This document shows, in pieces, positions 31,403 through 46,452 of a stretch of DNA of 64,000 nt (position 1 is its first letter; every line of letters starts with the position of its first letter). Below the pieces are notes generated by a model. That model was given only the letters and a program-made list of their open reading frames with translations, searched no databases and was not told where the DNA came from. The position numbers and the translations under genes were made by a program. Origin of the DNA: a phage; sequence record PZ171032.1. One strand, given 5' to 3'.

Positions 31403-31510
31403 ATGTTTATTGAGATGCTATCTGGGGTATTGTTACTGGTAGCCATCTTAGGTGGTGCAGTTCTGATGTATAACTATCTTGAAAAAGGAGACAGTAATGG
31501 CAAAAAATAA
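31403..31510 (+). CDS. tiny hydrophobic peptide, 35 aa (tentative)
   Basis: MFIEMLSGVLLLVAILGGAVLMYNYLEKGDSNGKK; below track cutoff; weak SD. Confidence 0.25.
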   Translation: MFIEMLSGVLLLVAILGGAVLMYNYLEKGDSNGKK

Positions 31511-31682
31511 ATCTTTAGAGCAGGCTGAAAACCTTCTCCACGAGCTGGTAAAGGAGTGGAAAGTTGAATACTCAGATTTTAATGCACGGGAGGGTGAAGA
31601 TTATTGGCCTACGGAGCGATCAGAGGGCGAATGGTATCAAGATTTTATAGAGTGGCTATATCAGACGTGTGATGAGGGGTGA
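31497..31682 (+). CDS. hypothetical acidic protein
   Basis: Start at MAKNKSLEQ behind AAGGAG. Confidence 0.45.
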   Translation: MAKNKSLEQAENLLHELVKEWKVEYSDFNAREGEDYWPTERSEGEWYQDFIEWLYQTCDEG

Positions 31683-32140
31683 CGATGTTTGTTAAATATG
31701 TAAAAACGTGCCTCAACAATCTTGGTAGAGAGCATTGGTACACCTTGCTTGAAAAAGGAGAAATTCTAACAAAATCTGGAAAGATAACTTTGATACCCTT
31801 GGACGATAAATACCCGTCACTCCTTGTCATAGATGATTACGTTACAGGTGTATCGTACGAGGTCTCTGTGGAGAGGTTAATACGCAGATCTGGAGGTCCT
31901 TATGACCGAAGAGAGTATGTTTTCGATTCTGTTACAGAGAGGGAAGATCCGTCTCTAATGTTCAGGATGGTAATCAGAGATATGAGGTCATCTATAGACA
32001 GGATCGTAAAGGACATTAAGGAGCCTTTTAGGGTAAAAGTTAAGAAGTTTTTTGATTCTAAGATTAACATACTTGCCGTTGTGCTAGGCGTAATTCAACT
32101 TCTGTTAATTTTGCACTATCTTGAACTGTTGTTTAAGTAG
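31679..32140 (+). CDS. hypothetical protein with C-terminal TM helix
   Basis: 153-aa ORF; C-terminus ILAVVLGVIQLLLILHYL. Confidence 0.45.
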   Translation: MTMFVKYVKTCLNNLGREHWYTLLEKGEILTKSGKITLIPLDDKYPSLLVIDDYVTGVSYEVSVERLIRRSGGPYDRREYVFDSVTEREDPSLMFRMVIRDMRSSIDRIVKDIKEPFRVKVKKFFDSKINILAVVLGVIQLLLILHYLELLFK

Positions 32141-32200
32141 TGTGCAATAAGGCACAAAGGATGTGCCATAACTAAATAAACTAAGAAAGAGGTAGAGAGA

Positions 32201-32548
32201 ATGCCAAAGATTAAATCGATATTAATGTGGGTAGCTGTTGTAGCTTTTGTAGGATACTGGACTTGGGAAACTGAATTAAAAGATATTGGATATACCAGTC
32301 TTGAGAACAAGGCGTGCATTGGCATAACCGATGCATTCAGGCAAAATGCTATGGATCACGAATGTGTCGATGCAGACATAGATGAGAAACTGTCTAAGGA
32401 CAAAGACTTCTACCACGGGTATGCTTTGCTTGATAGTGGGGACACTGTAGAGTTCTGGTCGTGGTTCCGTAAAGATGGAACAATAAAAACAGCAGTAAAG
32501 ATCTCTAACAAAGAGTTAATGCTGTTGCAGCAGAAGGAGGCTCAATGA
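32201..32548 (+). CDS. hypothetical protein with N-terminal TM/signal anchor
   Basis: ILMWVAVVAFVGYWTW. Confidence 0.45.
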   Translation: MPKIKSILMWVAVVAFVGYWTWETELKDIGYTSLENKACIGITDAFRQNAMDHECVDADIDEKLSKDKDFYHGYALLDSGDTVEFWSWFRKDGTIKTAVKISNKELMLLQQKEAQ

Positions 32549-32832
32549 TCTGGATATCCTATGCTGATGGCACCATGCTGTATACTGCAGGTACCAGATA
32601 TGAAGTTCAGGAGAACGATAAAAAATTTATCGTAAGAACATTTGACAAGGACGACAACCTTTTGCTAGAATTAACTTACAAGGTTGGGGATGTATCTAGC
32701 ATCCAATTGGATTGTGGTCATAAAGATAACCCCCTCAAAAAACCTGGAATAGGCAAGGCTTCAGAAGAACGTTTGTCTCGTATTGCAGAAAGCGTTTCTA
32801 ACCAAAAACCCAAAAAGAGGACCAGAAAATGA
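32545..32832 (+). CDS. hypothetical protein
   Basis: 95-aa ORF, overlapping stop/start. Confidence 0.4.
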   Translation: MIWISYADGTMLYTAGTRYEVQENDKKFIVRTFDKDDNLLLELTYKVGDVSSIQLDCGHKDNPLKKPGIGKASEERLSRIAESVSNQKPKKRTRK

Positions 32833-33029
32833 GTGACAAAATTCTTAAATTTAATACCTACTACGAGAATGATTTGAACGATCTGTATTATATAGTGCGT
32901 AGCGAAAACCCGAATGTAGTGCTGTTTTGCAGAGAACCTTTCAAAAGAGAGGAGATTGAATCTACCATGGATGTGGATCAGATTTCACACCTGCTGCTCC
33001 TTGGATCATTAAAAGAGGCAGTATTCTAA
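32829..33029 (+). CDS. hypothetical protein
   Basis: 66-aa ORF. Confidence 0.35.
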   Translation: MSDKILKFNTYYENDLNDLYYIVRSENPNVVLFCREPFKREEIESTMDVDQISHLLLLGSLKEAVF

Positions 33030-33048
33030 ACCAGGGTGGAGGGTTTTT

Positions 33049-33234
33049 ATGAAGCACTATTGTCTATCTGGTAGAATGGGTGCAGATTGTGATTGGGTTT
33101 TCTTAAAACTTGTCAGCATTCGAGAGTTCATCCCGGAGGAAGAGCAAGAAAGCGAGCTGATGTCATGGATCAACCATTACGGTAACACTTTTCGGCATGT
33201 TAAGGTGGAAGAGTTGCCAAGCGAGGCTGATTGA
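33049..33234 (+). CDS. hypothetical protein
   Basis: 61-aa ORF. Confidence 0.35.
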   Translation: MKHYCLSGRMGADCDWVFLKLVSIREFIPEEEQESELMSWINHYGNTFRHVKVEELPSEAD

Positions 33235-33236
33235 CT

Positions 33237-33326
33237 ATGATTGCATCAATATTAACGTTTATGGGCGGCGTGGCATTCGGATTCATTGTTTGCCTGTTTA
33301 TAGTGATTATGTCTATGCGAGGCTGA
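33237..33326 (+). CDS. tiny hydrophobic peptide, 29 aa
   Basis: MIASILTFMGGVAFGFIVCLFIVIMSMRG; fills the gap between two genes exactly. Confidence 0.3.
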   Translation: MIASILTFMGGVAFGFIVCLFIVIMSMRG

Positions 33327-33329
33327 ATT

Positions 33330-33626
33330 ATGAAACTTTTTGAGTGGTTTAAAAAGTTTAAATATAAAGCTGTAGCCATCGTGCCATGGTCCATTCAATG
33401 GGTGGACGATGAGGGATTACCAATTCCAGGTGATAAAGACACGGGATACTGGATCATGCTTGAAAACGGGTTTGGAAAGCGAAAATATACGTGCACAAAC
33501 TCTACTCGATCTGCACTTAATAGAGTGCCTGGTTACAAACTTATGGTTGTGTGGAAAATGTCAGGCGTGCCTCCAGCTAACGCTCAATTTCTTACTGACA
33601 ATCCAACCACGGTGGAGGGAGATTGA
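33330..33626 (+). CDS. hypothetical protein
   Basis: 98-aa ORF. Confidence 0.4.
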   Translation: MKLFEWFKKFKYKAVAIVPWSIQWVDDEGLPIPGDKDTGYWIMLENGFGKRKYTCTNSTRSALNRVPGYKLMVVWKMSGVPPANAQFLTDNPTTVEGD

Positions 33627-33910
33627 CAATGAAAAAGATTAACAGTGGTGAAGTTGAGTTTAAACTTGTCGGGAAAGGCACTTACTGGGAAGTTCGTCAA
33701 AAGGTATATTTGTTCGGTCTTATTCCCTATTGGTCTAAATTCTACTGGGGAGCTAACGAGTTGGGAAGATACGCCACCAAATCAATGGTACTTATTGGTA
33801 TAGCAGAGTACATTGCAGCCAGAGATAGGGTTGGAGACACTTATTACTATACTGCGGACGATATTCGTAACAGTGTTTACGTCCCACAACCACCTGATGG
33901 AGACCGTTGA
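33623..33910 (+). CDS. hypothetical protein
   Basis: 95-aa ORF. Confidence 0.4.
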   Translation: MTMKKINSGEVEFKLVGKGTYWEVRQKVYLFGLIPYWSKFYWGANELGRYATKSMVLIGIAEYIAARDRVGDTYYYTADDIRNSVYVPQPPDGDR

Positions 33911-34134
33911 TGAAAGTTAAAGTTTTAGATTCAAGCTTCTATATTGGTCAGGAGCCTTTAGTAGGAAAAGTGTTTACTGCTATCCCTAACGAAGATTACC
34001 CTGACCTTTTAAAAATAAAAGGAGCAGATCTTATTGCCGCTGGTGCATCTCAGGACTGCTTTGACAGTCAGTGGACCTACAACTTTGCCCTAGGCGAGGA
34101 TGTAGAGGTAGTGGAGGACGATCATGAAGGTTAA
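33907..34134 (+). CDS. small acidic protein, paralog family A (duplicated module 1)
   Basis: MMKVKVLDSS...LLKIKGADLIAAGASQD...DVEVVEDDHEG. Confidence 0.55.
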   Translation: MMKVKVLDSSFYIGQEPLVGKVFTAIPNEDYPDLLKIKGADLIAAGASQDCFDSQWTYNFALGEDVEVVEDDHEG

Positions 34135-34378
34135 AATTCTTGATTCTAACGTCTACTTGGGACAATCCTTCCTGAAGGGAAAGGTCGTTCCTGCGGTATA
34201 CTTTGAAGGGTTGCCGTGGGATGATCCTGTGCGGCAACATCACAGTTATGTAGGCCACAACGTGGTGTTTATCTTGGGATCAGACCTGATCACCGCTGGT
34301 GCACCTGAATATTATTTCGGGGAAGAGTCCTATTATGCCTTTGGGGTAGGGTCAGATGCGGATATTGTAGAGCTGTGA
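34124..34378 (+). CDS. small acidic protein, paralog family A (duplicated module 1)
   Basis: MKVKILDSN...VVFILGSDLITAGAPEY...YYAFGVGSDADIVEL; C-terminus matches 36241 ORF (FAFVVGSDVEVIEE). Confidence 0.55.
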   Translation: MKVKILDSNVYLGQSFLKGKVVPAVYFEGLPWDDPVRQHHSYVGHNVVFILGSDLITAGAPEYYFGEESYYAFGVGSDADIVEL

Positions 34379-34390
34379 TGGGTAACCGTT

Positions 34391-34789
34391 GTGAAAAATA
34401 AACTGTTTAAAGTTACAATGAAAATTCGCGGAGCTTGGAGCGTAAAGCAAGGGCGTATTCCGGAATTTGAGAAAGACTTCTACGTAGTCTCCACCTCGGA
34501 GGAGGCTGCATGCTGGCAGGCTGGCTATGCCTATGCAAGAACCTGGTACGAAGGATACCAGACTGGGGGCTATGACGGAGAAATTATCAGCAAGGGTGTA
34601 GAAGAAATTAATGTGTTGACAAGTGAAAAAGTTTTTGTTATAGTGCATCCAGATTCCAGAGTGAAGCATTACTGGAATGCCAGAACAAAAACTTGGACAC
34701 CGTTTGCAGATTCTGCTACACCACTTTTAAACCAAAAAGCTCTTGACTCTGCCCCAAGCTATGGGGTTGTTGAAGAAAAGCTAAACTGA
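34391..34789 (+). CDS. hypothetical protein, paralog of 36600 ORF (family D)
   Basis: FVIVHPDSRVKHYWNARTKTWTPFADSATPLL aligns with FVMRHPHSNIAYYWDVLNNEWTPDLQKATVL of 36600..36995. Confidence 0.5.
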   Translation: MKNKLFKVTMKIRGAWSVKQGRIPEFEKDFYVVSTSEEAACWQAGYAYARTWYEGYQTGGYDGEIISKGVEEINVLTSEKVFVIVHPDSRVKHYWNARTKTWTPFADSATPLLNQKALDSAPSYGVVEEKLN

Positions 34790-34806
34790 AACAGTGAGGT
34801 GTCACT

Positions 34807-35097
34807 ATGATGGATTTAGTTCTGAATATTGATAACGCAGGAGAGGTTAAAGACGATGGTGTAACAAGCATGGACCAACCATGCCCTGCCAAGATTGACT
34901 CAAAATGGACATATAAGTTTGACGGAGAGATCTTTGCAAATGATGAAAAGGTTGTAGATGCTGCAGCCATTTTGAACGCTCTAGGGTACGACCCTGTGAA
35001 TTCTTTGATCAAGGATCCTGTTGAGTTTGCAGAGTATGTTCGAAAAATGGCAGATCTTGCTGTAGATATTTTAGATACTATCGATAATAAGCTGTAA
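34807..35097 (+). CDS. hypothetical protein
   Basis: 96-aa ORF. Confidence 0.4.
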   Translation: MMDLVLNIDNAGEVKDDGVTSMDQPCPAKIDSKWTYKFDGEIFANDEKVVDAAAILNALGYDPVNSLIKDPVEFAEYVRKMADLAVDILDTIDNKL

Positions 35098-35103
35098 AAA
35101 CTG

Positions 35104-35132
35104 TTGACACAACGCTTCAGCTATAGTATTAT
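35104..35132 (+). promoter_or_regulatory. sigma70-type promoter (TTGACA-17-TATTAT) upstream of the HPF-like gene
   Basis: Consensus hexamers read directly. Confidence 0.7.
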
Positions 35133-35184
35133 TGTTTTCAAAGAGAGATGGTTGTTATTCTCTCTTCCTTAAAAGGAGCACGTT

Positions 35185-35502
35185 ATGCAAATTGAAATCA
35201 CTGGCAACGTAGAAATCACTGAAGGTATGGTGTCTTTCATTTCCCACAAAATGTCTAAGCTGGAGCGTTTGCACCCCTCTGCCAACTATGCACGTGTTAG
35301 TGTAAAAGTTGAAAATGATCACCAGGAAGTTATGGCGTTCATTTTTGACAATTCTGGAAAAGAAGTTATTGCCAAAGCTAAAGGCAGTGATGCTTACGAG
35401 GCAACTGACCGTATGGTAGATGTTGCAGCACGTCAGCTGGCTAAATGCGGTGGAAAGAAAGGTAAGGGGAAAGGCAAAGTAAAGATTGACTTTGGAGAAT
35501 GA
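35185..35502 (+). CDS. ribosome hibernation promoting factor / RaiA (YfiA)-family protein with Lys/Gly-rich tail
   Basis: MQIEITGNVEITEGMVSFISHKMSKLE...VSVKVE...AKAKGSDAYEATDRMVDVAARQLAK matches recalled E. coli HPF (MQLNITGNNVEITEALREFVTAKFAKLE...VLKVE...ASAEGQDMYAAIDGLIDKLARQLTK). Confidence 0.75.
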   Translation: MQIEITGNVEITEGMVSFISHKMSKLERLHPSANYARVSVKVENDHQEVMAFIFDNSGKEVIAKAKGSDAYEATDRMVDVAARQLAKCGGKKGKGKGKVKIDFGE

Positions 35503-35511
35503 GGTGCTACA

Positions 35512-35613
35512 ATGGGCGTGATTAAGAAATTAGTCCCAAATGTAGAGATTGCATGCTTTGAAATTATGTTTGCAATCGCAGTTGTAGTTAATGTGTTAGG
35601 TTACGGCTATTAA
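35512..35613 (+). CDS. tiny hydrophobic peptide, 33 aa
   Basis: GAGGTG SD; MGVIKKLVPNVEIACFEIMFAIAVVVNVLGYGY. Confidence 0.3.
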   Translation: MGVIKKLVPNVEIACFEIMFAIAVVVNVLGYGY

Positions 35614-35639
35614 TATCAAATAATTGAGGAGACCTCTAA

Positions 35640-35909
35640 ATGAAAATTAAATTATTCAAAACTGAGCTGGCAGACAAAAATTGTGGTCTGGTTGAAGGCA
35701 TGATTGTTGAAGCACAACCAGTGGACTATATGAAGGTGGTTCGTGATGCCCTGGGTGAAGGTTTTGATCTGATGGAGCCAGCTCTGCGGGAAGATGTTAT
35801 CGAGATGGCTAAAAAGCACACACCTGAAGGTTTGGTGGTGTTTATTGCACCGGGTAACGGAGAAGAGTTGATTGTAACTCCTGATGTGTATGAGATTGTA
35901 GAGGAATAA
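35640..35909 (+). CDS. small acidic protein, paralog family A
   Basis: MKIKLF... ends VYEIVEE. Confidence 0.5.
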   Translation: MKIKLFKTELADKNCGLVEGMIVEAQPVDYMKVVRDALGEGFDLMEPALREDVIEMAKKHTPEGLVVFIAPGNGEELIVTPDVYEIVEE

Positions 35910-35999
35910 TCCTGCTTGTATTAGCATACTTCCTCGATAAGGAAGGTTTGTAATTATTTGTGGGAAAGGAATCCCATCTCTTACCAGAGGTGATACTAT

Positions 36000-36263
36000 A
36001 TGATTGTTTATTTTAAAACTTCAGGTGGATACCCTGATTCTCAAAGCTTGATCGGAAAAACGTGCACAGCATACTCACCTCTTGATGAGGAGGTAAGCGA
36101 TATTCTACGAAATATGTATCGGATTGATCCCCAAGAAGCTTTTGATCAAAACCTTGTATTTGTCAAAGGCTCAGACATGAAGTCTTTGGGAGCATTCCCT
36201 GAAGCAGATGATGATGCCGTTTATTCGTTCATGACCCCTTTTGAAGCTATGGTTGTTGGGTGA
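36000..36263 (+). CDS. small acidic protein, paralog family A (duplicated module 2)
   Basis: ...LVFVKGSDMKSLGAFPE... Confidence 0.5.
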   Translation: MIVYFKTSGGYPDSQSLIGKTCTAYSPLDEEVSDILRNMYRIDPQEAFDQNLVFVKGSDMKSLGAFPEADDDAVYSFMTPFEAMVVG

Positions 36264-36600
36264 TAATATGAAAGTACGCTTTATTGGTGAAACAATTCCT
36301 GTGCATCTCCGGTCGCCTGAAGATTCTGCGGATCTTGCATCTCAGAAGGCGAGAGGTTATGATAAGAAAGTAATCTCAACCGATGTAGAACTTGAGGCTA
36401 CTAGTCTACCTGACCCTGCTGCATTCTTTAATCATTATGGATACTATTTCAGCAATCTGATGAATATCGGTGAGCTTGTGTTTATTAGTGGTGGAGAAAT
36501 TGTTAGCAAGCTTGGCGGAGATCCGGATGTCTTTCATGAAACCTGTCCTTTTGCATTTGTGGTGGGTTCGGATGTGGAAGTTATTGAGGAGGTGCAGTAA
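36241..36600 (+). CDS. small acidic protein, paralog family A (duplicated module 2)
   Basis: MKVRFIG...LVFISGGEIVSKLGGDPD...FAFVVGSDVEVIEEVQ. Confidence 0.55.
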   Translation: MKLWLLGDNMKVRFIGETIPVHLRSPEDSADLASQKARGYDKKVISTDVELEATSLPDPAAFFNHYGYYFSNLMNIGELVFISGGEIVSKLGGDPDVFHETCPFAFVVGSDVEVIEEVQ

Positions 36601-36995
36601 TGGTAAGCCTATACCGTGTTGAGTATAGCTCAGATACTGTATACAACGTAAGAAGCAAAGATCGCAGCGACAGAGTGCAAGAAATGTATGTTCTTGCCGA
36701 CAGTCCGTTATCTGCAGCGTTCAAGGCAGGGGCTCTTGCATCTCGTTGGAAATTTGAAGGCGGATCTTTCTATGAAGAAACCCTTGAAGATTCTGTTGTT
36801 ATTTCTTCTGTAGAGGTTTCAGATGACTACGAAGGGAAAAAGTTCGTAATGCGGCACCCACACAGCAACATTGCGTACTACTGGGATGTTCTGAACAACG
36901 AGTGGACCCCAGATCTTCAGAAGGCCACTGTGCTAACACCGTTTTTGGCAGATAAGTTCCCACCAGAAGGTAATTTATCCGCACTGTTTCAGTAA
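36600..36995 (+). CDS. hypothetical protein, paralog of 34391 ORF (family D)
   Basis: See 34391..34789; same position relative to two family-A genes. Confidence 0.5.
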   Translation: MVSLYRVEYSSDTVYNVRSKDRSDRVQEMYVLADSPLSAAFKAGALASRWKFEGGSFYEETLEDSVVISSVEVSDDYEGKKFVMRHPHSNIAYYWDVLNNEWTPDLQKATVLTPFLADKFPPEGNLSALFQ

Positions 36996-37013
36996 TTTTC
37001 TTGCACACAGGTG

Positions 37014-37042
37014 TTGACAACACCAACCCTGTGTGAAATAAT
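37014..37042 (+). promoter_or_regulatory. sigma70-type promoter (TTGACA-17-AATAAT) with flanking inverted repeat ACACAGG/CCTGTGT
   Basis: Read directly. Confidence 0.55.
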
Positions 37043-37071
37043 ACCTTCATCTTAACAAGACGGGAGACTGA

Positions 37072-37332
37072 TTGATGAAGATTAAACTGAAAAACCTTGA
37101 AATGGCAGAGATTCAGAATGGTGTTGATTTCCGCTCTAAAGATGGTGACATCTTAGAGGTAAATCTTCCAACCTACGAGCTGATTAAAGGTTTTGGCAAC
37201 GTTCAGGAAGAGGATATTCCAGAAATTCTTATGATGTTGATTCTTGACGGAACTGTGTTTGTAGGTGAAGGTGAGAACGCTATTGCAATCCCAGGCCATT
37301 TTTATGAAGTAGTTGACGAAGAGGTGCTGTAA
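37072..37332 (+). CDS. small acidic protein, paralog family A
   Basis: MMKIKLK... ends FYEVVDEEVL. Confidence 0.5.
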   Translation: MMKIKLKNLEMAEIQNGVDFRSKDGDILEVNLPTYELIKGFGNVQEEDIPEILMMLILDGTVFVGEGENAIAIPGHFYEVVDEEVL

Positions 37333-38012: not shown

Positions 38013-38299
38013 TGAAAGATCTGGTTAAGATTAAGATTAAAGATACCAATGGGGAGCTCAGCCATTTTGGAATTAATGATGGTGACGAGCTGATCGCACA
38101 CCTGCCTACCAAGGAGGTTGTAAGCAAAGCAGTTGCCGGAGAAGAAGCTGCAATGCAGGCTGCAGGTGTGGATGAAAACTATGTAGCTATGTGCATGTGC
38201 CGAGATCAGGTTGTTCTGTATAAAGCGTATCGACCAAACGGAGCCACGGAGTGGCTTGTATTCCGACCCGAAGGATATGAAATCTTAGAGGCACTATGA
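38012..38299 (+). CDS. small acidic protein (family A-like)
   Basis: MKDLVKIKIK... ends GYEILEAL. Confidence 0.45.
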   Translation: MKDLVKIKIKDTNGELSHFGINDGDELIAHLPTKEVVSKAVAGEEAAMQAAGVDENYVAMCMCRDQVVLYKAYRPNGATEWLVFRPEGYEILEAL

Positions 38300-38379
38300 T
38301 AAATCTTGCCAAGGTTGCAACGGCACTGTTAATTATTTGCTGGTCAGTAACCTTAACACTGTGTCTTGTATTTCAGTGA
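38296..38379 (+). CDS. tiny hydrophobic peptide, 27 aa
   Basis: ATGA overlap with upstream stop; MINLAKVATALLIICWSVTLTLCLVFQ. Confidence 0.3.
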   Translation: MINLAKVATALLIICWSVTLTLCLVFQ

Positions 38380-40104: not shown

Positions 40105-40134
40105 AGGACGCTCTGTGGCGTCCTTTTCTTTATC
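40105..40134 (+). terminator. rho-independent terminator (AGGACGC-tctgtg-GCGTCCT + TTTCTTTAT)
   Basis: Read directly. Confidence 0.75.
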
Positions 40135-40293
40135 TGGTGCACGATTGCATACCTTTGACAGATAATCTCATTACAGAGCGTTTAAGAGCTTCCTACAAAC
40201 AAATCTCTCTTTCGAGCGTAGCGAGAACGCACGTCCGTTTTGACCCAAATCACCATACGCTCGGATTTTAACCAAACCCTCGCGGCGTTTCTG

Positions 40294-40322
40294 TTGACAC
40301 ATTACCGCTTCAGTGATAGTAT
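40294..40322 (+). promoter_or_regulatory. sigma70-type promoter (TTGACA-17-TAGTAT)
   Basis: Read directly; drives the small peptide gene at 40343. Confidence 0.55.
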
Positions 40323-40342
40323 CCACACATAGTTTGGAGAAT

Positions 40343-40444
40343 ATGGAATACACAATGAAAACACTGTCAGAGGTTTTAGTGGTGATCCTGATGATCATTA
40401 CGTCCATAGCAGCTGTTGCCGGAATACTCACGGGTGGAACATGA
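40343..40444 (+). CDS. tiny hydrophobic peptide, 33 aa
   Basis: GGAG SD; MEYTMKTLSEVLVVILMIITSIAAVAGILTGGT; stop overlaps next start (ATGA). Confidence 0.35.
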   Translation: MEYTMKTLSEVLVVILMIITSIAAVAGILTGGT

Positions 40445-40653
40445 TCAACACACATGCATCTGAAGAGATATCCGAAGGAGTGACCATATGTCCCTTGGCT
40501 GAGCTAGGGAAAGAGGAAAACTTCGATTCTGAAGATTCTCCATCTCCGTCCCAGGGAGACCCTGAGGCTGATGACCTAACGTGGGAGGATATCATAGCCA
40601 TCTGGTTCTCTATTATGCCTGAGCACGAAGAGTTCAGAGGTGGGAGACTATGA
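40441..40653 (+). CDS. hypothetical acidic protein
   Basis: 70-aa ORF coupled to the upstream peptide gene. Confidence 0.4.
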   Translation: MINTHASEEISEGVTICPLAELGKEENFDSEDSPSPSQGDPEADDLTWEDIIAIWFSIMPEHEEFRGGRL

Positions 40654-40774
40654 AGCACCGAGCCCACACAGGTTCCTCATGCTTTAGCATGGCCTGAAGA
40701 GGCAAACGTGCATAATTCCTGTGCATTGGAACGTATAAAACCCTGTTCACACTCTCATTTCCAGAGGAGATTTC

Positions 40775-40990
40775 ATGAAAATAGAAATATTTGGTGGGGC
40801 TGACAACACTCGTGGCCTGATTTACCTTGAATTCGATGAATCATACCTGCCAGAGGTGTTAAATATGGACTCTGTTGCTGAGGCTTTGGGGGTAAGTCCT
40901 AAAGAACTCCACTCTTGTGCTGAGATCGATGGTTGGGAAGAGACCATGAACATTGATTTCAGTGAAGTAGGTGATGAACCGCTGGACTGA
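40775..40990 (+). CDS. small acidic protein (family A-like), last gene of the rightward block
   Basis: MKIEIFGG... acidic C-terminus. Confidence 0.45.
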   Translation: MKIEIFGGADNTRGLIYLEFDESYLPEVLNMDSVAEALGVSPKELHSCAEIDGWEETMNIDFSEVGDEPLD

Positions 40991-41119
40991 CACACAATAT
41001 TAGATGTCCGGCTAAAGTGCTGGAAGCACCTATAGCATATCTTTCAACTAAATTTCCTACCACCACAATCACTTACCTCCCACACATGACTGTTTGCTTG
41101 TTTAGTGAGCAGTCATGCC

Positions 41120-41147
41120 TTGACATTCTTGCCTATCCTGATAAAAT
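41120..41147 (+). promoter_or_regulatory. candidate sigma70 promoter (TTGACA-16-TAAAAT) firing into the ORF-free region
   Basis: Read directly; no ORF of 60 aa or more follows for about 900 bp. Confidence 0.4.
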
Positions 41148-42489
41148 TAAGTTCTTCTCTTTTCTTTTACCGAGTAATTCGGGTTTTCTGTTCTCTTCGG
41201 TTTGAAGGGGTATGGAGATACACCTGAGTGAACAGGGTGAACAACCGAACATTCGGCTATGGCATTAGCATGGCGAAGCGAACGGGTGACGAAAGAGGGG
41301 CCGGAGGACACCAGTCACTGCCATATGATATATGGGTGATAACCTGAAGAGTCTGAATAAGTGTTTAAGTACCAGTCAGAGGAAAAGGTGAATGGTAGCC
41401 GAAGGGGGAGGGGGGGTTTCTTGTATCTTTAATTTGTATATTATGTATACACTTGTAAACCAATTTCATCTGAATCTGTTTACCATACAAAGTGGATTGA
41501 GACAAATATTACCTATTAAACTTGAATTATTTATAGAAAATACCACAACACACCTTAAGTCTTTGATTTTACACATAAATCCTACAGATATTCAACCTCC
41601 ATATTTAACATACTTGTAACATATCCTATACCACACCTGCCTGATCAATTTCCCCAACTACATCCTCTATATTTTACCTGCCTGTACTACCCCTGCCCCG
41701 CCGGGAGTCCCGTCATATCTGGCTTTCCAGCAAATATCCCACCAACAAATATCATTGCCTGAAGAGGGTTTCATCCCATAATACATGCCTTATCTGAAGA
41801 GCGCTTCATACACCACGTAAATTTTTTAATTGACCCCTCCCCGCCGCCGGAGAGGTTGGCTTTTCCCACACAGACCTGAAGAGTCAGCCAGAAATATCTG
41901 AATAGGCCCAATTCTACCACGATTTTGACCTGACCTACAGGGAGGCCCGAAGGGTCTAGCTTTCAGCTAGAGTCCTTGCAGGACCTACAGGAGTGCTGCC
42001 AGGCGGACGGAATGGGAATACTTCTCATTTTTATAATAATTCTCAAATATCGAGGCAGTGAGGCAAATTAATAGGTGAGGCCGTTCACACAGTGGCACAA
42101 CATTTGCAACCTATCTTGTGTGGGGGAATGATAATACCTATCATTGTGAGAACCATTATCATTACGGGCAATTTAACATAATACCCATTATGCGCACCAC
42201 TGGCGATACATACAGGGATTGATAACATGAGTTACAGTTTACGCATATAACAATTATATTTCTTATCATTTGTGTGGGATATAGTTAGCAGCCAATAGAT
42301 TAGATATTGACCTGCATACTTCCAACCGTCTAGACGTCTAAACGCCCACACACCAAGGATTATACATACACTCCTGAATGTAAACAGGGCCGCAAAAATG
42401 CTACCATACAAGCTTGTAAATTTTTCATGCAGCACTTGACAAAGAGGAGAAAAACTTGTCTGACATAATGTGACCTAACTGACACAACA

Positions 42490-42590
42490 TGACACTTTTA
42501 CACACCTATTAGTTTACACACTGGATTGTTTACATTCCTGATTGTTCACATGCTAACCATTTACATGATTGACTGTTTACACACCGATAA
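42490..42590. repeat. iteron-like array: six copies of a TTTACA(C/T)-containing motif at roughly 15-bp spacing
   Basis: Read directly: cTTTTACACAcc, aGTTTACACAct, tGTTTACATtc, tGTTCACATgc, cATTTACATga, tGTTTACACAcc. Confidence 0.6.
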
Positions 42591-42594
42591 TCAG

Positions 42595-42843
42595 CCATGC
42601 CATTCGTTTGCATGACAATAATTATACATGACAATAATCGCACTGATTATAATTAGCATGACATAATATAAAAGCAGGGCAACTATTAGCAGATCTATAG
42701 TTGCCCTGCTTGTTATGTCATGATTAACTAAATACAAGGCAACTATGATCTGATTAATAGTTTGCAGACAAACTATCACGGGGGTGATGGTTACTGCTTT
42801 TATATTATGTCGCGACTCCGTCGCGCCATGCCATTCGTTTGCA
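42595..42843. repeat. direct repeat pair CCATGCCATTCGTTTGCAT (about 230 bp apart) flanking a perfect 14-bp-stem palindrome (42673-42710) and CATGACAATAAT repeats
   Basis: Read directly. Confidence 0.6.
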
Positions 42844-43454
42844 TAGTTGCCTTATTGTTACAGGTAAAATAATTACATTATTAATTATTTCTTATCTTTC
42901 TCTTAGTCATCTAATGATTCCAGTCAGTATAGTAATGTACAGTAAACATTAGACGACTAAATATTTCTATGCTTATGATAACTTGCCGTGACAATTTCGG
43001 ACTGTTTACGAAAAATGTTGACACCTGGGCGGGTTTATGTTATGCAGTTTACACGAATAATTATTTCATACAGGTATTGACTATTCCGTTATTCTGTGGT
43101 TGGAATAAATACTTTGCAGGCTATAGAATGGTGTGCGTACGTGAATTCTAAGATCTGGCGGCTATAGTTACACCCGATTTTTCACGTAGAACACGCTTTT
43201 TGGTTTGTGTAAGTGTATGACTTATAAAGATTTTTAGTTGTTGACAGGATATTGAAGATGTGCATCAGGTTAAATTTTGTGCAATAGCTGCAGTACGTGC
43301 ATTTTTGGAAGGAAAAACGTGTAAAAATGGTCCTGCTACCACATAATGAAAGATTATGCAATAGCTATTTTATATGTATATTTGTACAGTGTGTGGGATT
43401 GATGGCTCGTCAATTATTCCACTTGCTGGGTGGGGCCGTTTGTGGTAGGAGGAG

Positions 43455-43486
43455 AGCAGACAAAAAGAAAGGGGCCTAAGCCCCTT
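43455..43486 (-). terminator. rho-independent terminator for the leftward block (AAGGGGC-ttag-GCCCCTT + TCTTTTTGTCTG on minus strand)
   Basis: Read directly, just downstream of the last minus-strand gene. Confidence 0.7.
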
Positions 43487-43505
43487 GATAATGTAAATTG
43501 TTGTA

Positions 43506-43770
43506 TTATTTGTTACTCATCCAGTTTTCCCAAGCTGCCTGATAATCTGCCTCACTGCGGCGGATCTCTTCTTGTTCTTCAAGCCGGATCTCTTCTTCCA
43601 GGTACCCCAAGATATCGGCTTTTTTTGGTCTGGCGTAACATCCAATCATCTTTTTTACGGGTAAAGATCTTATATGCTTTCTCGCAAACCTCTTTTTTGC
43701 TACCTTTTTGGACTTCAAGAACTTTGTAGGCCATGTACTGAACTAGTTTGAGCTGATCAAGACGTTTCAT
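43506..43770 (-). CDS. hypothetical basic protein; two overlapping frames (43579..43770 and 43506..43718) joined across an A7 run
   Basis: AAGAGG SD before the 43770 ATG; frames switch at CCAAAAAAAGCC (about 43605-43615). Confidence 0.4.
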
Positions 43771-43833
43771 GATGTTTACCTCTTTATGGGGTTCTGGTTT
43801 GGTGTGGGCCTTTTGGCCCGTGTCATTATCTTA

Positions 43834-44106
43834 TTACTTACGGCGGCAAAATTCAAGTGTTTTTAATTGATAATCTTCCTCAGCTTGGAGTACAACCGCC
43901 TCGATCATTTCGTTGGCATTGGTGAAGCCATACCCTTGAGCGAACTCATCCGCGCCACCTTCGTGATCATGTTCTGCGTTCATCGCTTCCACAAAATGGA
44001 ATTCAAGATTGTTGAGGTAAGGGCTTGATGTTCCGTCCTCTTTTTCGATGAGATCCCAGATAGCATTAAAACGTGATTCGACTTCTTGATTAATCCAGCT
44101 TGACAT
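43834..44106 (-). CDS. hypothetical acidic protein
   Basis: 90-aa ORF. Confidence 0.45.
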   Translation of the reverse strand: MSSWINQEVESRFNAIWDLIEKEDGTSSPYLNNLEFHFVEAMNAEHDHEGGADEFAQGYGFTNANEMIEAVVLQAEEDYQLKTLEFCRRK

Positions 44107-44318
44107 AATGTTTTCCTCTCTTCTGGTTGTTGTGTGGGCACTTTTGCCCCTTCAAGATAAATGATACCCCCACCACCTGGCAGATGTCAACGGTTTTTAT
44201 AGTTTTTTATATAACAGGCACCCACGGTGATTGTCTCCCCCCGTCGCCAAGTGCCACCCGTGAGACAAGTATACCAAAAAACAGGACCATTGCAAGCCCT
44301 GTTTATAGTCTATAAGGA

Positions 44319-44510
44319 TTATATTTTTTCGCCTATGTAGTCCGGCCTATTCTTTTCGGTCATACGCTTAAGCATTTTTTGCATATGGCTTATAGCTTGT
44401 AATGTATCCTCTTCCAGGGATGAATCTAGATAATCAGGATCATTCTTCACCTTGCAATGATTATGATAACGCAGTACCGCCAGTACTTTTTTAACTTCTT
44501 CCGCTGTCAT
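44319..44510 (-). CDS. hypothetical protein
   Basis: 63-aa ORF. Confidence 0.4.
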   Translation of the reverse strand: MTAEEVKKVLAVLRYHNHCKVKNDPDYLDSSLEEDTLQAISHMQKMLKRMTEKNRPDYIGEKI

Positions 44511-44518
44511 TATCGCGC

Positions 44519-44653
44519 CTAAAACAATGAGTTAATATATAACACCAGATCGCTGACTACCAGGACAACATTAATCAGCACATACCTAACCATAAAGGGA
44601 AAGATCGCCAACATTGCCGCCACGATCCCCATGGTAATAATTATCTTTCTCAT
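44519..44653 (-). CDS. small membrane peptide, 44 aa (tentative)
   Basis: MRKIIITMGIVAAMLAIFPFMVRYVLINVVLVVSDLVLYINSLF; below track cutoff. Confidence 0.3.
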   Translation of the reverse strand: MRKIIITMGIVAAMLAIFPFMVRYVLINVVLVVSDLVLYINSLF

Positions 44654-44918
44654 GGTTAACGGTTCACGTAAGTTTTCCCGTTTACGGTTATCGGCAGATC
44701 CTCCAGGTCTGGATCTTCTTTAAGGTCGCGAGCAAGTTCACCGCACCGAACGCCCTCGAATCCGTAGTACTCTGTCGTGCCATCCTGGAAAGTTTTAGCG
44801 GCAAGGCATAGGCGATAAGTAACACCGATTTGATTGACGGCATGGATATCAGTTAGATCTACCTCTTTTGCCAGCTTTTTGGCGCTTACAGGGCCAACCA
44901 GGGGCGCTATTCGTAGGA

Positions 44919-44950
44919 TAGAAATAAAAAGCCCCGCACAATGGCGGGGC
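44919..44950 (-). terminator. rho-independent terminator (minus strand GCCCCGC-cattgt-GCGGGGC + TTTTTATTTC)
   Basis: Read directly, immediately downstream of the 44959 gene stop. Confidence 0.8.
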
Positions 44951-44958
44951 GTTGGTTG

Positions 44959-45156
44959 TTATTTGTCTTTATGGCGGTATCGTTCTGCCTGTCGTTCACG
45001 TTCCAAAAGTAGGCCGGGCAATTTACGATCATAATGGTTACGCCAGATCTTCCCAAACCTTTTTGGCTTATTCAGTTTATTGTTACGCTGGCGGCGTTCT
45101 GGCAGCTCTTCGGAATCATGAGGGCGCTTTACAATTTTCTCGAAATTAATTTTCAT
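44959..45156 (-). CDS. small highly basic (Arg/Lys-rich) protein
   Basis: Start at MKINFEKIV behind AAGGGGGG; the track ORF starts 8 codons upstream. Confidence 0.45.
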   Translation of the reverse strand: MKINFEKIVKRPHDSEELPERRQRNNKLNKPKRFGKIWRNHYDRKLPGLLLERERQAERYRHKDK

Positions 45157-45517
45157 ATATTCCCCCCTTACTGATCTCAATATTTGCCTGAATCGCCCGG
45201 ATACGGCGCTTTATAACTTCCTGATCTGTGTGGTCGTATCCCCAAAAGTCCACAATTTTTGCGCCCCCCGCCTCCAGGCGGTATAGTGTTTCCTGCATTT
45301 TGTAAGCCGGGATCGGTCGCGGTGTTACTTGGTCACCTTCTTTATTTTTATACTTTATAATATAATCTTCGTTATCGTTGAATGTCCAAAATGGATATTC
45401 TGCAAGGGCGGCACTTCCTCTTTCCTTTTTGTCCTGGATCTTATTTACAATTAAAGCCGTAGCAATAGCGCCAATAATAAAACTTGCCCCGCTGATCATG
45501 TTACTTTCTCCTTTCAT
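45146..45517 (-). CDS. membrane-anchored hypothetical protein
   Basis: N-terminal TM ISGASFIIGAIATALIV; likely start at second Met behind AAAGGAG. Confidence 0.45.
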   Translation of the reverse strand: MKGESNMISGASFIIGAIATALIVNKIQDKKERGSAALAEYPFWTFNDNEDYIIKYKNKEGDQVTPRPIPAYKMQETLYRLEAGGAKIVDFWGYDHTDQEVIKRRIRAIQANIEISKGGIYEN

Positions 45518-45575
45518 TGTGTTGATAAACTATCTTTATAGATGGCCCTGCTACCAGGACCACCGAAAAAACAGT

Positions 45576-45821
45576 TTATTTGACGATACCGACAAAACAG
45601 ATCCCGCCTTCCCCTATATAGGCAATATCGGTAATTTTATAATTTGTCAAGATCCGCGTGTTCAGCTCATTAATAAAATCGGTCATCGCGTTGGTGTAGT
45701 TGTCTTCCGTATCTAAGGCATAATCCCAGGTGTAAACCTTTTTACGTCCGAAGCCTTTTACCATGATACGGGCGCTTTTGGTGTTAGTAGGGGCATAATA
45801 CTTGGTGATTAGTGCTGCCAT
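45576..45821 (-). CDS. hypothetical protein
   Basis: AAGGAG SD; 81 aa. Confidence 0.5.
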   Translation of the reverse strand: MAALITKYYAPTNTKSARIMVKGFGRKKVYTWDYALDTEDNYTNAMTDFINELNTRILTNYKITDIAYIGEGGICFVGIVK

Positions 45822-45862
45822 GGTTTTAACTCCTTTGCATTAGTTCAGTGTTAACAGTATAA

Positions 45863-45909
45863 AGTTTACTTTATTGATGGCCCTGGAGTCAAGGCCATCT
45901 AAAAATAAA
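45863..45909 (-). promoter_or_regulatory. conserved 47-nt intergenic cassette, copy 1: hairpin GATGGCC...GGCCATC with embedded minus-strand promoter TTGACT-18-TAAACT
   Basis: Identical except one base to copy 2; on the minus strand the -35 sits in the hairpin loop and the cassette begins 2 nt after the upstream stop codon. Confidence 0.5.
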
Positions 45910-45911
45910 TT

Positions 45912-46253
45912 TTACTCGTTTTCTTCCAGCTCTGAAAGCTCTTCTTTCACTTCTTCCAGCTCTGTCTGCAATTCCCGGTATTCTTCATCGTCCTCAATAT
46001 CCAGGCTGTCGATGTAGTCGCTAAATCCGCAGCGGTAAGCGATAGGATCTAACTCCTTGAGGATACGCGACGGAAGAAAAGAAATGTTTCCGATCATAAT
46101 TTCGCCGTAGATCTCGTCTAACCATTCATCATAGTTTTCGTCGTACTTGTCCTCGTCGATTTCAAAGTTATCGATCTTGTTCTCAAGGTCTGCGATCTGT
46201 TTTTTCAGCGCGGCGATCTGCATAGCTTTTTCTGCGGCGGTCATAGTAGTCAT
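45912..46253 (-). CDS. hypothetical acidic coiled-coil protein
   Basis: AAGGAG SD; 113 aa. Confidence 0.5.
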   Translation of the reverse strand: MTTMTAAEKAMQIAALKKQIADLENKIDNFEIDEDKYDENYDEWLDEIYGEIMIGNISFLPSRILKELDPIAYRCGFSDYIDSLDIEDDEEYRELQTELEEVKEELSELEENE

Positions 46254-46304
46254 GGTGTTTTCTCCTTTTGTGTGTTCTGGGAAGTTTTCCCGTTTACGTG
46301 TCTA

Positions 46305-46332
46305 AGTATACCGATTTGGGTTAGCTTGTCAA
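46305..46332 (-). promoter_or_regulatory. minus-strand sigma70-type promoter (TTGACA-16-TATACT), followed by AGACAC and a GGGAA-aac-TTCCC 5'-UTR hairpin
   Basis: Read directly on the reverse complement. Confidence 0.55.
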
Positions 46333-46452
46333 TTAAAAATTTAAGAAAAATTTTGCGACACCGTTGGCGCTACCCATCAACATTTGCGCCAGGATGTACC
46401 CAATGATGCAAACGATGATGGTTACCTTTGTGTGCTGGCGTGTAGTGCTCAT
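46333..46452 (-). CDS. small membrane peptide, 39 aa
   Basis: AAGGAGG SD; MSTTRQHTKVTIIVCIIGYILAQMLMGSANGVAKFFLNF. Confidence 0.4.
   Translation of the reverse strand: MSTTRQHTKVTIIVCIIGYILAQMLMGSANGVAKFFLNF

What the first reader, a model, noticed from the sequence alone, without database searches (positions are those of the whole stretch)
31403..46452. Numerous tiny hydrophobic peptide genes (27-44 aa) wedged between annotated genes
At least seven sub-threshold ORFs encode single-TM peptides with plausible SDs and exact stop/start overlaps (33237..33326, 35512..35613, 38296..38379, 40343..40444, 44519..44653, 46333..46452, 31403..31510). Such peptides in phages often target host membrane proteins (cell division, transport, receptor masking) and are routinely missed by gene callers.
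Basis: seen in the sequence. Interest (0 to 1): 0.4.

Follow-up and report, generated by a model that had tools for sequence, protein, structure and literature searches.

The report
Tiny membrane-peptide genes in rV5-like phage
The seven tiny hydrophobic reading frames are really there in this rV5-like E. coli phage and most behave like genuine small membrane-protein genes, but six are already in public databases as 'hypothetical proteins', one (27 aa) is unannotated in every record and collection checked, and one may not be a protein gene at all.

Summary
The window is a Vequintavirus (rV5-like E. coli myophage). All seven ORFs exist at the stated coordinates, and each has a 17-residue stretch with mean Kyte-Doolittle hydropathy of at least 2.39. 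Only 1 of 62 control ORFs from the same region reaches 2.3.

Across 14-20 related genomes:
- **c1, c4, c5, c6 and c7** stay open and fit purifying selection (dN/dS 0.09-0.48; neutral-simulation P at most 0.0005).
- **c2** is weaker within the genus (P 0.012). It is kept intact at 76-90% DNA identity in mEp021-like temperate phages and prophages, where it heads a tandem run of similar mini-ORFs. About a quarter of Vequintavirus records lack it.
- **c3** is doubtful as a protein. It has dN/dS 0.72, a nonsense codon in one genome and start-codon loss in three. Its synonymous variation is about five-fold lower than in the flanking genes, and a conserved promoter-like site overlaps its ATG.

The ORFs are not novel as predictions. 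Six are exact NCBI entries, six are annotated in a BASEL phage genome, and five match PHROG families of unknown function. Only c4 (27 aa, below gene-caller length limits) is absent from every source checked.

Function is inferred: accessory inner-membrane peptides in early, host-promoter-driven gene blocks that probably act on membrane proteins. Interest is low to moderate.

The parts
31391..31510 (+). c1: 39-aa single-TM peptide (MFQAMFIEMLSGVLLLVAILGGAVLMYNYLEKGDSNGKK; GTG start). It equals rV5 gp126 and PHROG 15251. Its last 14 nt overlap the start and SD of the next gene.
   Evidence: Intact in 19/19 genomes with 32 synonymous and 10 non-synonymous changes, dN/dS 0.09, neutral-simulation P < 5e-5. 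GTG/ATG start swap and an in-frame 3-nt insertion in one genome. PHROG E = 6.6e-31 over the full 39 aa. Annotated in rV5.
33237..33326 (+). c2: 29-aa peptide that is almost entirely TM helix, with a conserved GxxxG motif (MIASILTFMGGVAFGFIVCLFIVIMSMRG). It is a ~110-nt mini-gene cassette bounded by direct repeats of CGAGGCTGA.
   Evidence: Present in 91 phage records, against 121 that hold the flanks. Cleanly missing in 3 of 13 aligned genomes, leaving one repeat copy. Homologs at 76-90% DNA identity in 10 of 5426 E. coli chromosomes; the two inspected lie in prophages related by DNA to the mEp021-like phages, the ORF is intact and the substitutions are conservative. dN/dS 0.31 within the genus (P 0.012) and 0.36 with prophages included. 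Annotated only in BASEL genomes. No strong PHROG match (best phrog_6302, E = 0.0038 over 17 residues).
35512..35613 (+). c3: 33-codon ORF (rV5 gp140, PHROG 15151). Its coding status is doubtful. The core 35548-35640 is a nucleotide-level ultra-conserved element of unknown kind.
   Evidence: dN/dS 0.72. Synonymous changes per synonymous site are 0.31, against 1.46 and 1.66 in the flanking genes. Nonsense codon in Mangalyan; ATG to ATA in D#, S127 and one metagenome contig. Lowest nucleotide diversity within 34800-36300.
35486..35513 (+). Sigma70-like promoter match, TTGACT-16 nt-TACAAT with a TG extension. Its -10 box overlaps the c3 ATG. If active, transcripts would start downstream of the c3 start codon.
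   Evidence: One search gives 10 of 12 matches, but the number of such sites in the region is not above the shuffle expectation. The -35 hexamer is invariant in 17 distinct haplotypes; the -10 box is kept, or changed to TATAAT, in nearly all, while the spacer varies.
38296..38379 (+). c4: 27-aa single-TM peptide (MINLAKVATALLIICWSVTLTLCLVFQ). ATGA overlap with the upstream gene's stop, GAGG SD, and its own stop lies inside the SD of the next gene. It is not annotated in any of the nine annotated Vequintavirus records inspected.
   Evidence: Intact in 19/19 genomes, with ATG to GTG in two. 14 synonymous and 12 non-synonymous changes, dN/dS 0.28, neutral-simulation P = 0.0005. DNA present in 118 phage records. 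The exact sequence is not in the 15-billion-protein collection. No PHROG, Pfam or NCBIfam hit.
40355..40444 (+). c5: 29-aa single-TM peptide (MKTLSEVLVVILMIITSIAAVAGILTGGT). Its stop overlaps the next gene's ATG (ATGA).
   Evidence: Intact in 16/17 aligned genomes; the 17th (IMGVR_b) keeps only the shorter ORF from the second ATG. dN/dS 0.19-0.22, P < 5e-5. Replaced by unrelated sequence in B9-1 and S127. PHROG 34195 (29 aa) E = 4.6e-21. rV5 instead annotates a long ORF in another frame (gp157).
44519..44653 (-). c6: 44-aa membrane peptide with two hydrophobic stretches (rV5 gp165, PHROG 16005). In this window it sits behind a terminator-like hairpin and a 5'-truncated gp166 homolog, so its expression here is uncertain.
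   Evidence: Intact in 15/15 genomes despite about 123 substitutions, two alternative C-termini and an in-frame indel. dN/dS 0.48, P < 5e-5. Homologs at 66-68% identity in Phapecoctavirus phages. Replaced in EI-SP-GF. Upstream context.
46333..46452 (-). c7: 39-aa single-TM peptide (rV5 gp188, PHROG 16391). Strong SD (AAGGAGG, 7 nt upstream). A TTGACA -35 box follows its stop directly.
   Evidence: Intact in 14/14 genomes, 22 synonymous and 17 non-synonymous changes, dN/dS 0.20, P < 5e-5. PHROG E = 1.8e-31. Annotated in rV5, FV3, I29 ('putative membrane protein'), Mangalyan and MaxTheCat. rV5 promoter P192 is annotated immediately downstream.

Best explanation
Six of the seven ORFs (c1, c2, c4, c5, c6, c7) are genuine genes for very small (27-44 aa) inner-membrane peptides.

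**Where they sit (shown).** They lie in the two blocks of small, mostly uncharacterised genes of an rV5-like phage. The rV5 record marks these blocks with host sigma70-type promoters.

**How they are made (inferred).** They are transcribed with their neighbours. They are translated through their own SD or through coupling to a neighbour (ATGA overlaps, or 2-nt gaps).

**What they do (inferred by analogy).** Each inserts as a single helix into the cytoplasmic membrane. Each acts by binding and modulating a larger membrane protein of the host or of the phage. Candidate targets are transport, division, envelope stress, superinfection exclusion, or defence and counter-defence.

**Accessory status (shown).** Several are missing or replaced in some genomes. 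c2 is a ~110-nt cassette exchanged with temperate mEp021-like phages.

**c3 is different.** It is more likely a conserved nucleic-acid element, such as a transcript leader or a DNA site behind a promoter, than a peptide gene.

The confidence given applies to 'real small membrane-peptide genes'. The partner-binding mechanism alone would rate about 0.35.
For: - **Reading frames kept open.** Frames are intact in 14-19 of 14-19 aligned genomes for c1, c4, c6 and c7, and in 16 of 17 for c5. There are no disabling changes among 26-123 substitutions each. dN/dS is 0.09-0.48, against 0.02-0.35 for most neighbouring genes. Neutral simulations give P at most 0.0005.
- **Start-codon and indel behaviour.** GTG/ATG swaps occur at the c1 and c4 starts. 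In-frame indels occur in c1 and c6.
- **Hydrophobicity is not background.** 1 of 62 control ORFs is as hydrophobic (Fisher test).
- **c2 in a foreign context.** It keeps its frame and its GxxxG motif at 78% DNA identity with entirely different neighbours.
- **c6 in another genus.** It is conserved in Phapecoctavirus.
- **Promoters.** Sigma70-type promoters are annotated through the region in rV5.
- **Presence/absence.** c2 is in 91 of 121 records. c5 and c6 are replaced in some genomes.
- **Precedents for the mechanism.** SPO1 gp56 is a phage early protein that blocks division by binding FtsL/DivIC (bioRxiv 10.1101/2020.02.06.938217). Bacterial small membrane proteins are reviewed in PMC12648545.
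Against: - There is no expression, translation or localisation data for any of them. No transcriptome or ribosome-profiling study of an rV5-like phage turned up in the library searched.
- No family library assigns a function.
- Divergence within the genus is shallow, so the per-ORF statistics for c2 and c4 rest on 16-26 substitutions.
- Three of 62 control ORFs, all antisense to real genes, also stay open with dN/dS at or below 0.36.
- c6 in this window lacks an SD and its coupling partner.
- TM prediction is from hydropathy only.
- The idea that they bind a membrane protein is analogy, not evidence.
Confidence: 0.75

Rival explanations
1. The ORFs are translated, but the peptides themselves do not matter. 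They would serve only as short coupling or spacer ORFs that carry ribosomes from one gene to the next, or protect the mRNA. Their hydrophobicity would be a by-product of T-rich sequence.
For: The layout is tightly coupled: ATGA overlaps for c4 and c5, 2-nt gaps for c2 and for c6 in rV5, and SDs of downstream genes embedded in c1 and c4. Fesenko et al. note that the hydrophobicity of intergenic microproteins partly follows from AT-rich sequence (PMC11188072).
Against: Non-synonymous changes are depleted (dN/dS 0.09-0.3 for c1, c4, c5, c7), and those seen are mostly hydrophobic-to-hydrophobic. Only 1 of 62 control ORFs in the same DNA is hydrophobic. c2 keeps its peptide sequence in a different phage with different neighbours. 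c6 is conserved across genera.
Confidence: 0.12
2. c3 specifically is a non-coding element. A promoter at 35486-35513 would fire just downstream of the c3 ATG. The invariant 35548-35640 stretch would be the 5' leader of the next gene (the rV5 gp141 homolog) or a protein-binding DNA site. The open frame would be incidental.
For: Synonymous variation is about five-fold lower than in the flanking genes, and dN/dS is 0.72. There is a nonsense codon in one genome and ATG to ATA in three. The region has the lowest diversity in the 1.5-kb neighbourhood. The -35 and -10 hexamers are conserved while the spacer varies. The core holds the palindrome GATTGCA-N17-TGCAATC.
Against: - The promoter match is no more than shuffles produce.
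- The predicted leader is no more stable than shuffled sequence (z = -0.41).
- There is no Rfam hit.
- A good SD (GAGGTG, 6 nt upstream) precedes the ATG.
- Two of the three ATA variants (D# and mgSKEL) have an ATG at codon 3.
- The ORF matches a PHROG family and its exact sequence is seen on 753 contigs.
- A dual coding plus nucleic-acid constraint is possible.
Confidence: 0.5
3. Some of the peptides are membrane-damaging toxins, or lysis-timing factors (holin- or antiholin-like, or type I-toxin-like), rather than regulators of specific partners.
For: In the temperate phages, c2 sits directly after a holin, lysozyme and Rz cassette plus one further gene. c6 and c7 lie within about 1 kb of the homolog of a gene that BASEL annotates as 'putative holin' (window 45146..45517). 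Their size and hydrophobicity match type I toxins.
Against: There is no sequence match to holin, antiholin or toxin families in Pfam, PHROGs or NCBIfam. There is no Rfam hit to known antitoxin or hok-type RNAs. c1-c5 lie in gene blocks far from any lysis gene.
Confidence: 0.15
4. The ORFs are chance open frames, preserved only because the genomes compared are closely related.
For: Genus-level identity is 87-99%. 8 of 62 control ORFs are open in every genome.
Against: - Neutral simulations using the observed number of substitutions give P at most 0.0005 for c1, c4, c5, c6 and c7.
- Hydrophobicity is enriched among gap-filling ORFs.
- Start swaps and in-frame indels are seen.
- c2 and c6 are conserved outside the genus.
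Confidence: 0.05

Closest known systems
Deposited hypothetical proteins of Vequintavirus: rV5 gp126, gp140, gp165, gp188; BASEL MaxTheCat bas57_0166, 0159, 0151, 0135, 0125, 0104; PHROGs 15251, 15151, 34195, 16005, 16391
   Same: Identical or near-identical sequences at the same genome positions. Six of the seven are exact NCBI entries.
   Different: c4 is in none of these sources. c2 has no strong PHROG match. Start sites differ between annotations (c1 39 vs 35 aa; c5 33 vs 29 aa). None has an assigned function.
Bacterial small inner-membrane regulators of 50 aa or fewer, such as AcrZ, MgtS, MgrB and SgrT (from my own knowledge; review PMC12648545)
   Same: Size (27-44 aa), one hydrophobic helix, short charged ends, no enzymatic domain. 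The proposed mode of action is binding a larger membrane protein.
   Different: There is no sequence similarity. These peptides are phage-encoded in early gene blocks, and no partner is known.
Phage early membrane proteins that act on host envelope machinery: SPO1 gp56, which blocks division through FtsL/DivIC (bioRxiv 10.1101/2020.02.06.938217); T4 Imm and Sp superinfection-exclusion proteins (from my own knowledge)
   Same: They are encoded among small early or host-takeover genes, are anchored in the membrane, and are accessory.
   Different: Those proteins are about 80-100 aa with extra-membrane parts. The peptides here are little more than a TM helix. There is no homology.
Tandem mini-ORF array downstream of the lysis cassette in mEp021-like temperate coliphages and prophages (mEp010, MagusPhagus, E. 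coli PAR, E. coli M1/5)
   Same: c2 is a homolog of the first member of that array in two prophages (29 aa, 21-25 of 29 residues identical). The other array members are likewise 20-47-aa TM peptides.
   Different: Vequintavirus holds a single copy inserted between unrelated early genes, not an array next to lysis genes. The array itself is uncharacterised; the 2025 paper on the group does not mention it.
Type I toxins (Hok, TisB, Ibs, Ldr; PMC2887945)
   Same: Small hydrophobic peptides of 20-50 aa.
   Different: There is no antisense RNA partner or hok-type mRNA element by Rfam and no sequence similarity. They sit in polycistronic gene blocks rather than as stand-alone toxin/antitoxin loci.

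Membership tests
PHROG families 15251 (c1), 34195 (c5), 16005 (c6), 16391 (c7), 15151 (c3) | Full-length profile match with a significant E-value | tested here: met
   E values of 6.6e-31, 4.6e-21, 1.5e-26, 1.8e-31 and 3.7e-26, all end to end. c4 has no match. c2 has only a weak partial one (E = 0.0038).
Small single-pass inner-membrane proteins (50 aa or fewer) | Length of 50 aa or less, with one hydrophobic stretch long enough to span the membrane | tested here: met
   27-44 aa. Maximum 17-residue Kyte-Doolittle mean is 2.39-2.83 for all seven. No dedicated TM predictor was available.
Small single-pass inner-membrane proteins (50 aa or fewer) | The peptide is actually translated and located in the membrane | not testable with these tools
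   No Ribo-seq or proteomic data were found. The evolutionary evidence for coding is indirect.
Small membrane-protein regulators (AcrZ/MgtS type) | Specific binding to a larger membrane protein whose activity changes | not testable with these tools
   No partner can be inferred. Neighbouring genes have no Pfam domain except a RaiA/HPF homolog.
Holins and antiholins | Sequence membership of a holin family, and a position in a lysis cassette beside an endolysin | tested here: not met
   No holin family hit in Pfam, PHROGs or NCBIfam. In the window none of the seven adjoins an annotated endolysin. Only the prophage copy of c2 lies near a lysis cassette.
Type I toxin-antitoxin | A small hydrophobic toxin ORF with an overlapping or adjacent antisense RNA antitoxin | tested here: inconclusive
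   No Rfam family matches anywhere in the window. Novel antisense RNAs cannot be excluded.
Pfam DUF7396 (c6 only) | Score above the Pfam gathering threshold (27 bits) | tested here: not met
   16.1 bits, E = 0.013. 5 of 8 family members match weakly, best E = 0.0042.
Morons / mobile accessory gene cassettes (c2 only) | Presence/absence polymorphism at a fixed site, and the same cassette in unrelated phage backbones | tested here: met
   Present in 91 of 121 records, with a clean deletion between CGAGGCTGA repeats. The same about 110 nt occur in mEp021-like prophages, with no similarity in the flanks. Own promoter and terminator, often cited for morons: not present.

The most novel reading that the evidence does not exclude
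E. coli phages may share a pool of exchangeable 'micro-cassettes'. Each would be about 100 nt and encode a bare TM helix. They would move between temperate and virulent phages by recombination at short SD/stop-codon repeats. They would pile up as tandem arrays in mEp021-like phages, or sit singly in Vequintavirus (c2, and perhaps c4, c5 and c7 as older arrivals). Each would be tuned to a different host membrane target. In addition, the c3 locus would be an unrecognised conserved regulatory RNA or DNA element rather than a gene.
Probability: 0.25. Interest if true: 0.55.

Novelty: new member of a known kind. Interest (0 to 1): 0.3.

Why it matters
Small membrane peptides are among the least understood phage genes. 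A few studied examples show that such proteins can switch off host division or exclude rival phages.

This result gives a vetted list for a well-used phage group. rV5-like phages appear in the BASEL collection and in phage-therapy and biocontrol work.
- Five peptides have solid evolutionary support.
- One (c4) needs adding to annotations.
- One (c2) has clearly moved between virulent and temperate phages.
- One annotated 'gene' (c3) should be re-examined as a possible regulatory element.

It does not reveal a new kind of system.

Tried and rejected
- **Rfam.** The whole window at gathering thresholds, and 40700-43700 at E of 1 or less, gave nothing. ARAGORN found no tRNA.
- **Family libraries.** Pfam, NCBIfam and PADLOC gave no significant family for any of the seven peptides.
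- **IMG/VR and metagenome scans.** These were meant to enlarge the genome panel but returned only 2 and 5 loci.
- **The search for homologous proteins.** It refuses queries under 40 aa, so only c6 could be searched.
- **E. coli genome search.** Searching c1 and c3-c7 gave no match, so only c2 is shared with prophages.
- **tblastn of six peptides against all phages.** Hits came only from Vequintavirus records at the sensitivity available for such short queries.
- **c2 flanks.** I tested whether the upstream neighbour of c2 is homologous to the prophage's 180-aa neighbour. It is not.
- **c3 as a structured RNA.** The fold is no better than shuffled sequence for the putative leader, and there is too little variation to test covariation.
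- **c3 core as a repeated motif.** It occurs once in the window.
- **Lipoprotein reading of c4.** Rejected by eye: LIIC is not a lipobox.
- **Gene map.** A first greedy gene map picked some antisense ORFs. It was replaced by a strand-aware map.
- **Literature.** Searches found no transcriptomic or ribosome-profiling study of an rV5-like phage, and no description of the mEp021 mini-ORF array.

Full report
**What the window is.** The 16 kb around the finding match more than 100 Vequintavirus genomes (rV5-like E. coli myophages) at about 90-98% identity. Relative to rV5 they carry about 6 kb of insertions and deletions. Genes run on the + strand up to about 41 kb and on the - strand from about 43.4 kb, and GC skew flips there. 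The rV5 reference record marks this region as dozens of small hypothetical genes interspersed with sigma70-type promoters. It is therefore a block of small, host-RNA-polymerase-driven, mostly uncharacterised genes.

**Checking the observation.** All seven ORFs exist as described. Five are on the + strand and two on the - strand. Each has a 17-residue window with mean Kyte-Doolittle hydropathy of 2.39-2.83.

I built a strand-aware map of the larger ORFs and listed every same-strand ORF of 20-49 aa that fits the gaps. The seventh, c1, was hidden by an over-extended neighbour. Among 62 control ORFs of 25-45 aa in other frames or antisense in the same DNA, only one is as hydrophobic. Fisher P = 2.7e-4. 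The pattern is not a composition artefact.

**Are they genes?** I assembled homologous regions from 14-20 genomes. These were rV5, Mangalyan, FV3, I29, MaxTheCat, ECP26, BP9, B9-1, S127, EI-SP-GF, A141, D#, PDX, Aya, two IMG/VR contigs and three metagenome contigs. For each ORF I counted synonymous and non-synonymous changes along a minimum spanning tree of haplotypes.

Calibration: 33 neighbouring annotated genes give dN/dS of 0.02-0.35, with one at 0.65 and most near 0.1. They show about 1.3-2 synonymous changes per synonymous site.

The candidates:

| ORF | Genomes intact | Synonymous | Non-synonymous | dN/dS |
|---|---|---|---|---|
| c1 | 19/19 | 32 | 10 | 0.09 |
| c4 | 19/19 | 14 | 12 | 0.28 |
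| c5 (29-aa form) | 16/17 | 34.8 | 19.2 | 0.19 |
| c6 | 15/15 | 48.9 | 74.1 | 0.48 |
| c7 | 14/14 | 22 | 17 | 0.20 |

- For c5, the one non-intact genome (IMGVR_b) keeps an ORF from the second ATG.
- c6 carries about 123 changes in all.
- I placed the observed number of substitutions at random on each ORF. The chance of no disabling change together with so few non-synonymous changes was at most 0.0005 for all five.
- Qualitative signs agree. The c1 start swaps between GTG and ATG, and the c4 start is GTG in two genomes. c1 and c6 carry in-frame indels. c6 has two alternative C-termini, both open.
- Of the 62 controls, 8 are open in every genome. Three of those also have low dN/dS, and all three are antisense to real genes, a known artefact.

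**c2.** Within the genus the evidence is thin: 8 synonymous and 8 non-synonymous changes, P = 0.012. Two further facts matter.

1. c2 is present in 91 phage records, against 121 that hold the flanking DNA. In three of my genomes it is missing cleanly, leaving one copy of a CGAGGCTGA repeat that otherwise brackets it.
2. The same ~110 nt, and nothing around them, occur at 76-90% identity in 10 of 5426 complete E. coli chromosomes.
   - The two chromosomal copies inspected lie in prophages related by DNA to the mEp021-like temperate phages.
   - In them the 29-codon frame, the GxxxG motif and the bracketing repeat are all kept, with conservative substitutions.
   - The flanking proteins are unrelated.
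   - In those phages the c2 homolog lies just after holin, lysozyme, Rz and one more gene. It is the first of a run of 8-11 tiny (20-47 aa) hydrophobic ORFs. Several of these are identical between phages, while others are swapped like cassettes.

c2 is therefore a real, mobile, dispensable mini-gene.

**c3.** This ORF behaves differently.
- dN/dS is 0.72.
- One genome has a nonsense codon at codon 12, and three have ATA in place of ATG.
- Synonymous change is about five-fold rarer than in the flanking RaiA/HPF-like and gp141-like genes (0.31 against 1.46 and 1.66 per site).
- The core 35548-35640 is the least variable stretch within 1.5 kb. It is nearly identical even in the most divergent relative.
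- A sigma70-like site (TTGACT, 16 nt, TG-extended TACAAT) ends on the c3 ATG. Its hexamers are conserved while its spacer varies. If it fires, transcripts start after the c3 start codon.

Against that reading, such matches are no more frequent than in shuffles. The putative leader does not fold better than shuffled sequence. Rfam finds nothing. I treat c3 as unresolved, leaning towards a nucleic-acid element, possibly combined with coding.

**What was already known.**

| Source | What it holds |
|---|---|
| rV5 record | c1, c3, c6, c7 annotated |
| BASEL phage MaxTheCat | all except c4 annotated |
| NCBI (exact look-up in a 15-billion-protein collection) | six are entries; c4 is absent |
| PHROGs | c1, c3, c5, c6, c7 match families of unknown function |
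| Pfam, NCBIfam, PADLOC | nothing significant |

- Other records omit several of the ORFs. None of the nine annotated Vequintavirus records inspected annotates c4.
- c4 is 84 nt, below the usual 90-nt gene-caller minimum (from my own knowledge of Prodigal).
- tblastn finds the six non-c2 peptides only in Vequintavirus records, usually five or six per genome.
- A protein search places c6 also in Phapecoctavirus phages at 66-68% identity.

**Details corrected.**
- c1 probably starts at GTG 31391. Its C-terminal codons carry the SD and start of the next gene.
- c5 probably starts at 40355.
- In this window the gene that precedes c6 in rV5 (gp166, a signal-peptide protein whose stop lies 2 nt before the c6 ATG) has lost its 5' end. 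It now sits behind a terminator-like hairpin. c6 has no SD, so it may be poorly expressed in this particular phage.

**Mechanism.**
- Shown: the ORFs are conserved as peptides, are hydrophobic, are tightly packed with neighbours, lie in promoter-bearing blocks of small genes, and are variably present.
- Inferred: they are co-transcribed and translated by SD or coupling, and they insert as single helices.
- Analogy only: they act by binding larger membrane proteins, as bacterial small membrane proteins do (PMC12648545) and as SPO1 gp56 does for the division proteins FtsL/DivIC (bioRxiv 10.1101/2020.02.06.938217).

The rivals are coupling-only ORFs, toxin or lysis-timing peptides, and chance. 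They are weighed in the structured fields, and none fits the data as well for the six peptides.

**Verdict.** The useful outputs are:
- a vetted list of five well-supported peptide genes;
- one conserved gene missing from annotations (c4);
- one mini-gene with clear horizontal transfer and a link to an undescribed mini-ORF array (c2);
- one annotated 'gene' that may be regulatory DNA or RNA (c3).

Noticed in passing
L017 7015..7754, L016 7015..7966, L018 2125..2955, L019 910..1982 (E. coli prophages and mEp021-like phages): There is a tandem run of 8-11 tiny (20-47 aa) hydrophobic ORFs between the lysis cassette and the small terminase gene. Several are identical across phages (for example MIDPLIILSACVAVWLAIMIFIES and MKELFDWLEVLTYCASFVACVYIINKY), while others are swapped. 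Many begin with M-D/N/E-A-Y/I. RefSeq leaves most of them unannotated. The first member in two prophages is the c2 homolog.
   Followed up: partly
window 40990-43400: This is a gene-poor 2.4-kb stretch at the switch between + and - strand genes, unannotated in rV5, with GC 0.39. It holds a cluster of repeats at 42590-42860: a perfect 15-nt hairpin (AAGCAGGGCAACTAT-N10-ATAGTTGCCCTGCTT), an 18-nt perfect inverted repeat, a recurring GGCAACTAT motif on both strands, and a 20-nt perfect direct repeat 231 nt apart. There is no tRNA and no Rfam hit. It may be an origin or a regulatory region.
   Followed up: partly
window 35548-35640: This stretch is nearly invariant across 20 genomes, including at synonymous sites of the c3 frame and in the spacer before the next gene. 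It contains the palindrome GATTGCA-N17-TGCAATC. No overlapping ORF, Rfam family, stable fold or repeated motif explains it.
   Followed up: yes
window 44656-44958 (- strand): The homolog of rV5 gp166, a 94-aa protein with a signal peptide in rV5, has no start codon here. Its 5' end is replaced by a terminator-like hairpin (CCCCGC...GCGGGG followed by a T run, at about 44920-44950). The same arrangement is seen in 'Campylobacter phage A141', which is identical to the window over the 255 nt compared around c6.
   Followed up: partly
window 25213..25329 and 25864..25977 (+): Two further small ORFs have perfect AGGAGG SDs but are not hydrophobic. One is a 38-aa Cys-rich peptide (CxC...CxxC, zinc-ribbon-like). 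The other is a 37-aa Lys-rich peptide.
   Followed up: no
phage collection records MG0656xx: About 18-20 records named 'Campylobacter phage' (host given as C. jejuni, flagged UNVERIFIED) are 94-100% identical to E. coli Vequintavirus genomes in this region. The host label looks unreliable.
   Followed up: no
window 40343..40653 vs rV5 gp157 (L001 10357..10662): rV5 annotates one long ORF that runs through c5 in another frame. The substitution pattern favours c5 plus a separate 70-aa gene joined by an ATGA overlap, as BASEL annotates it.
   Followed up: partly
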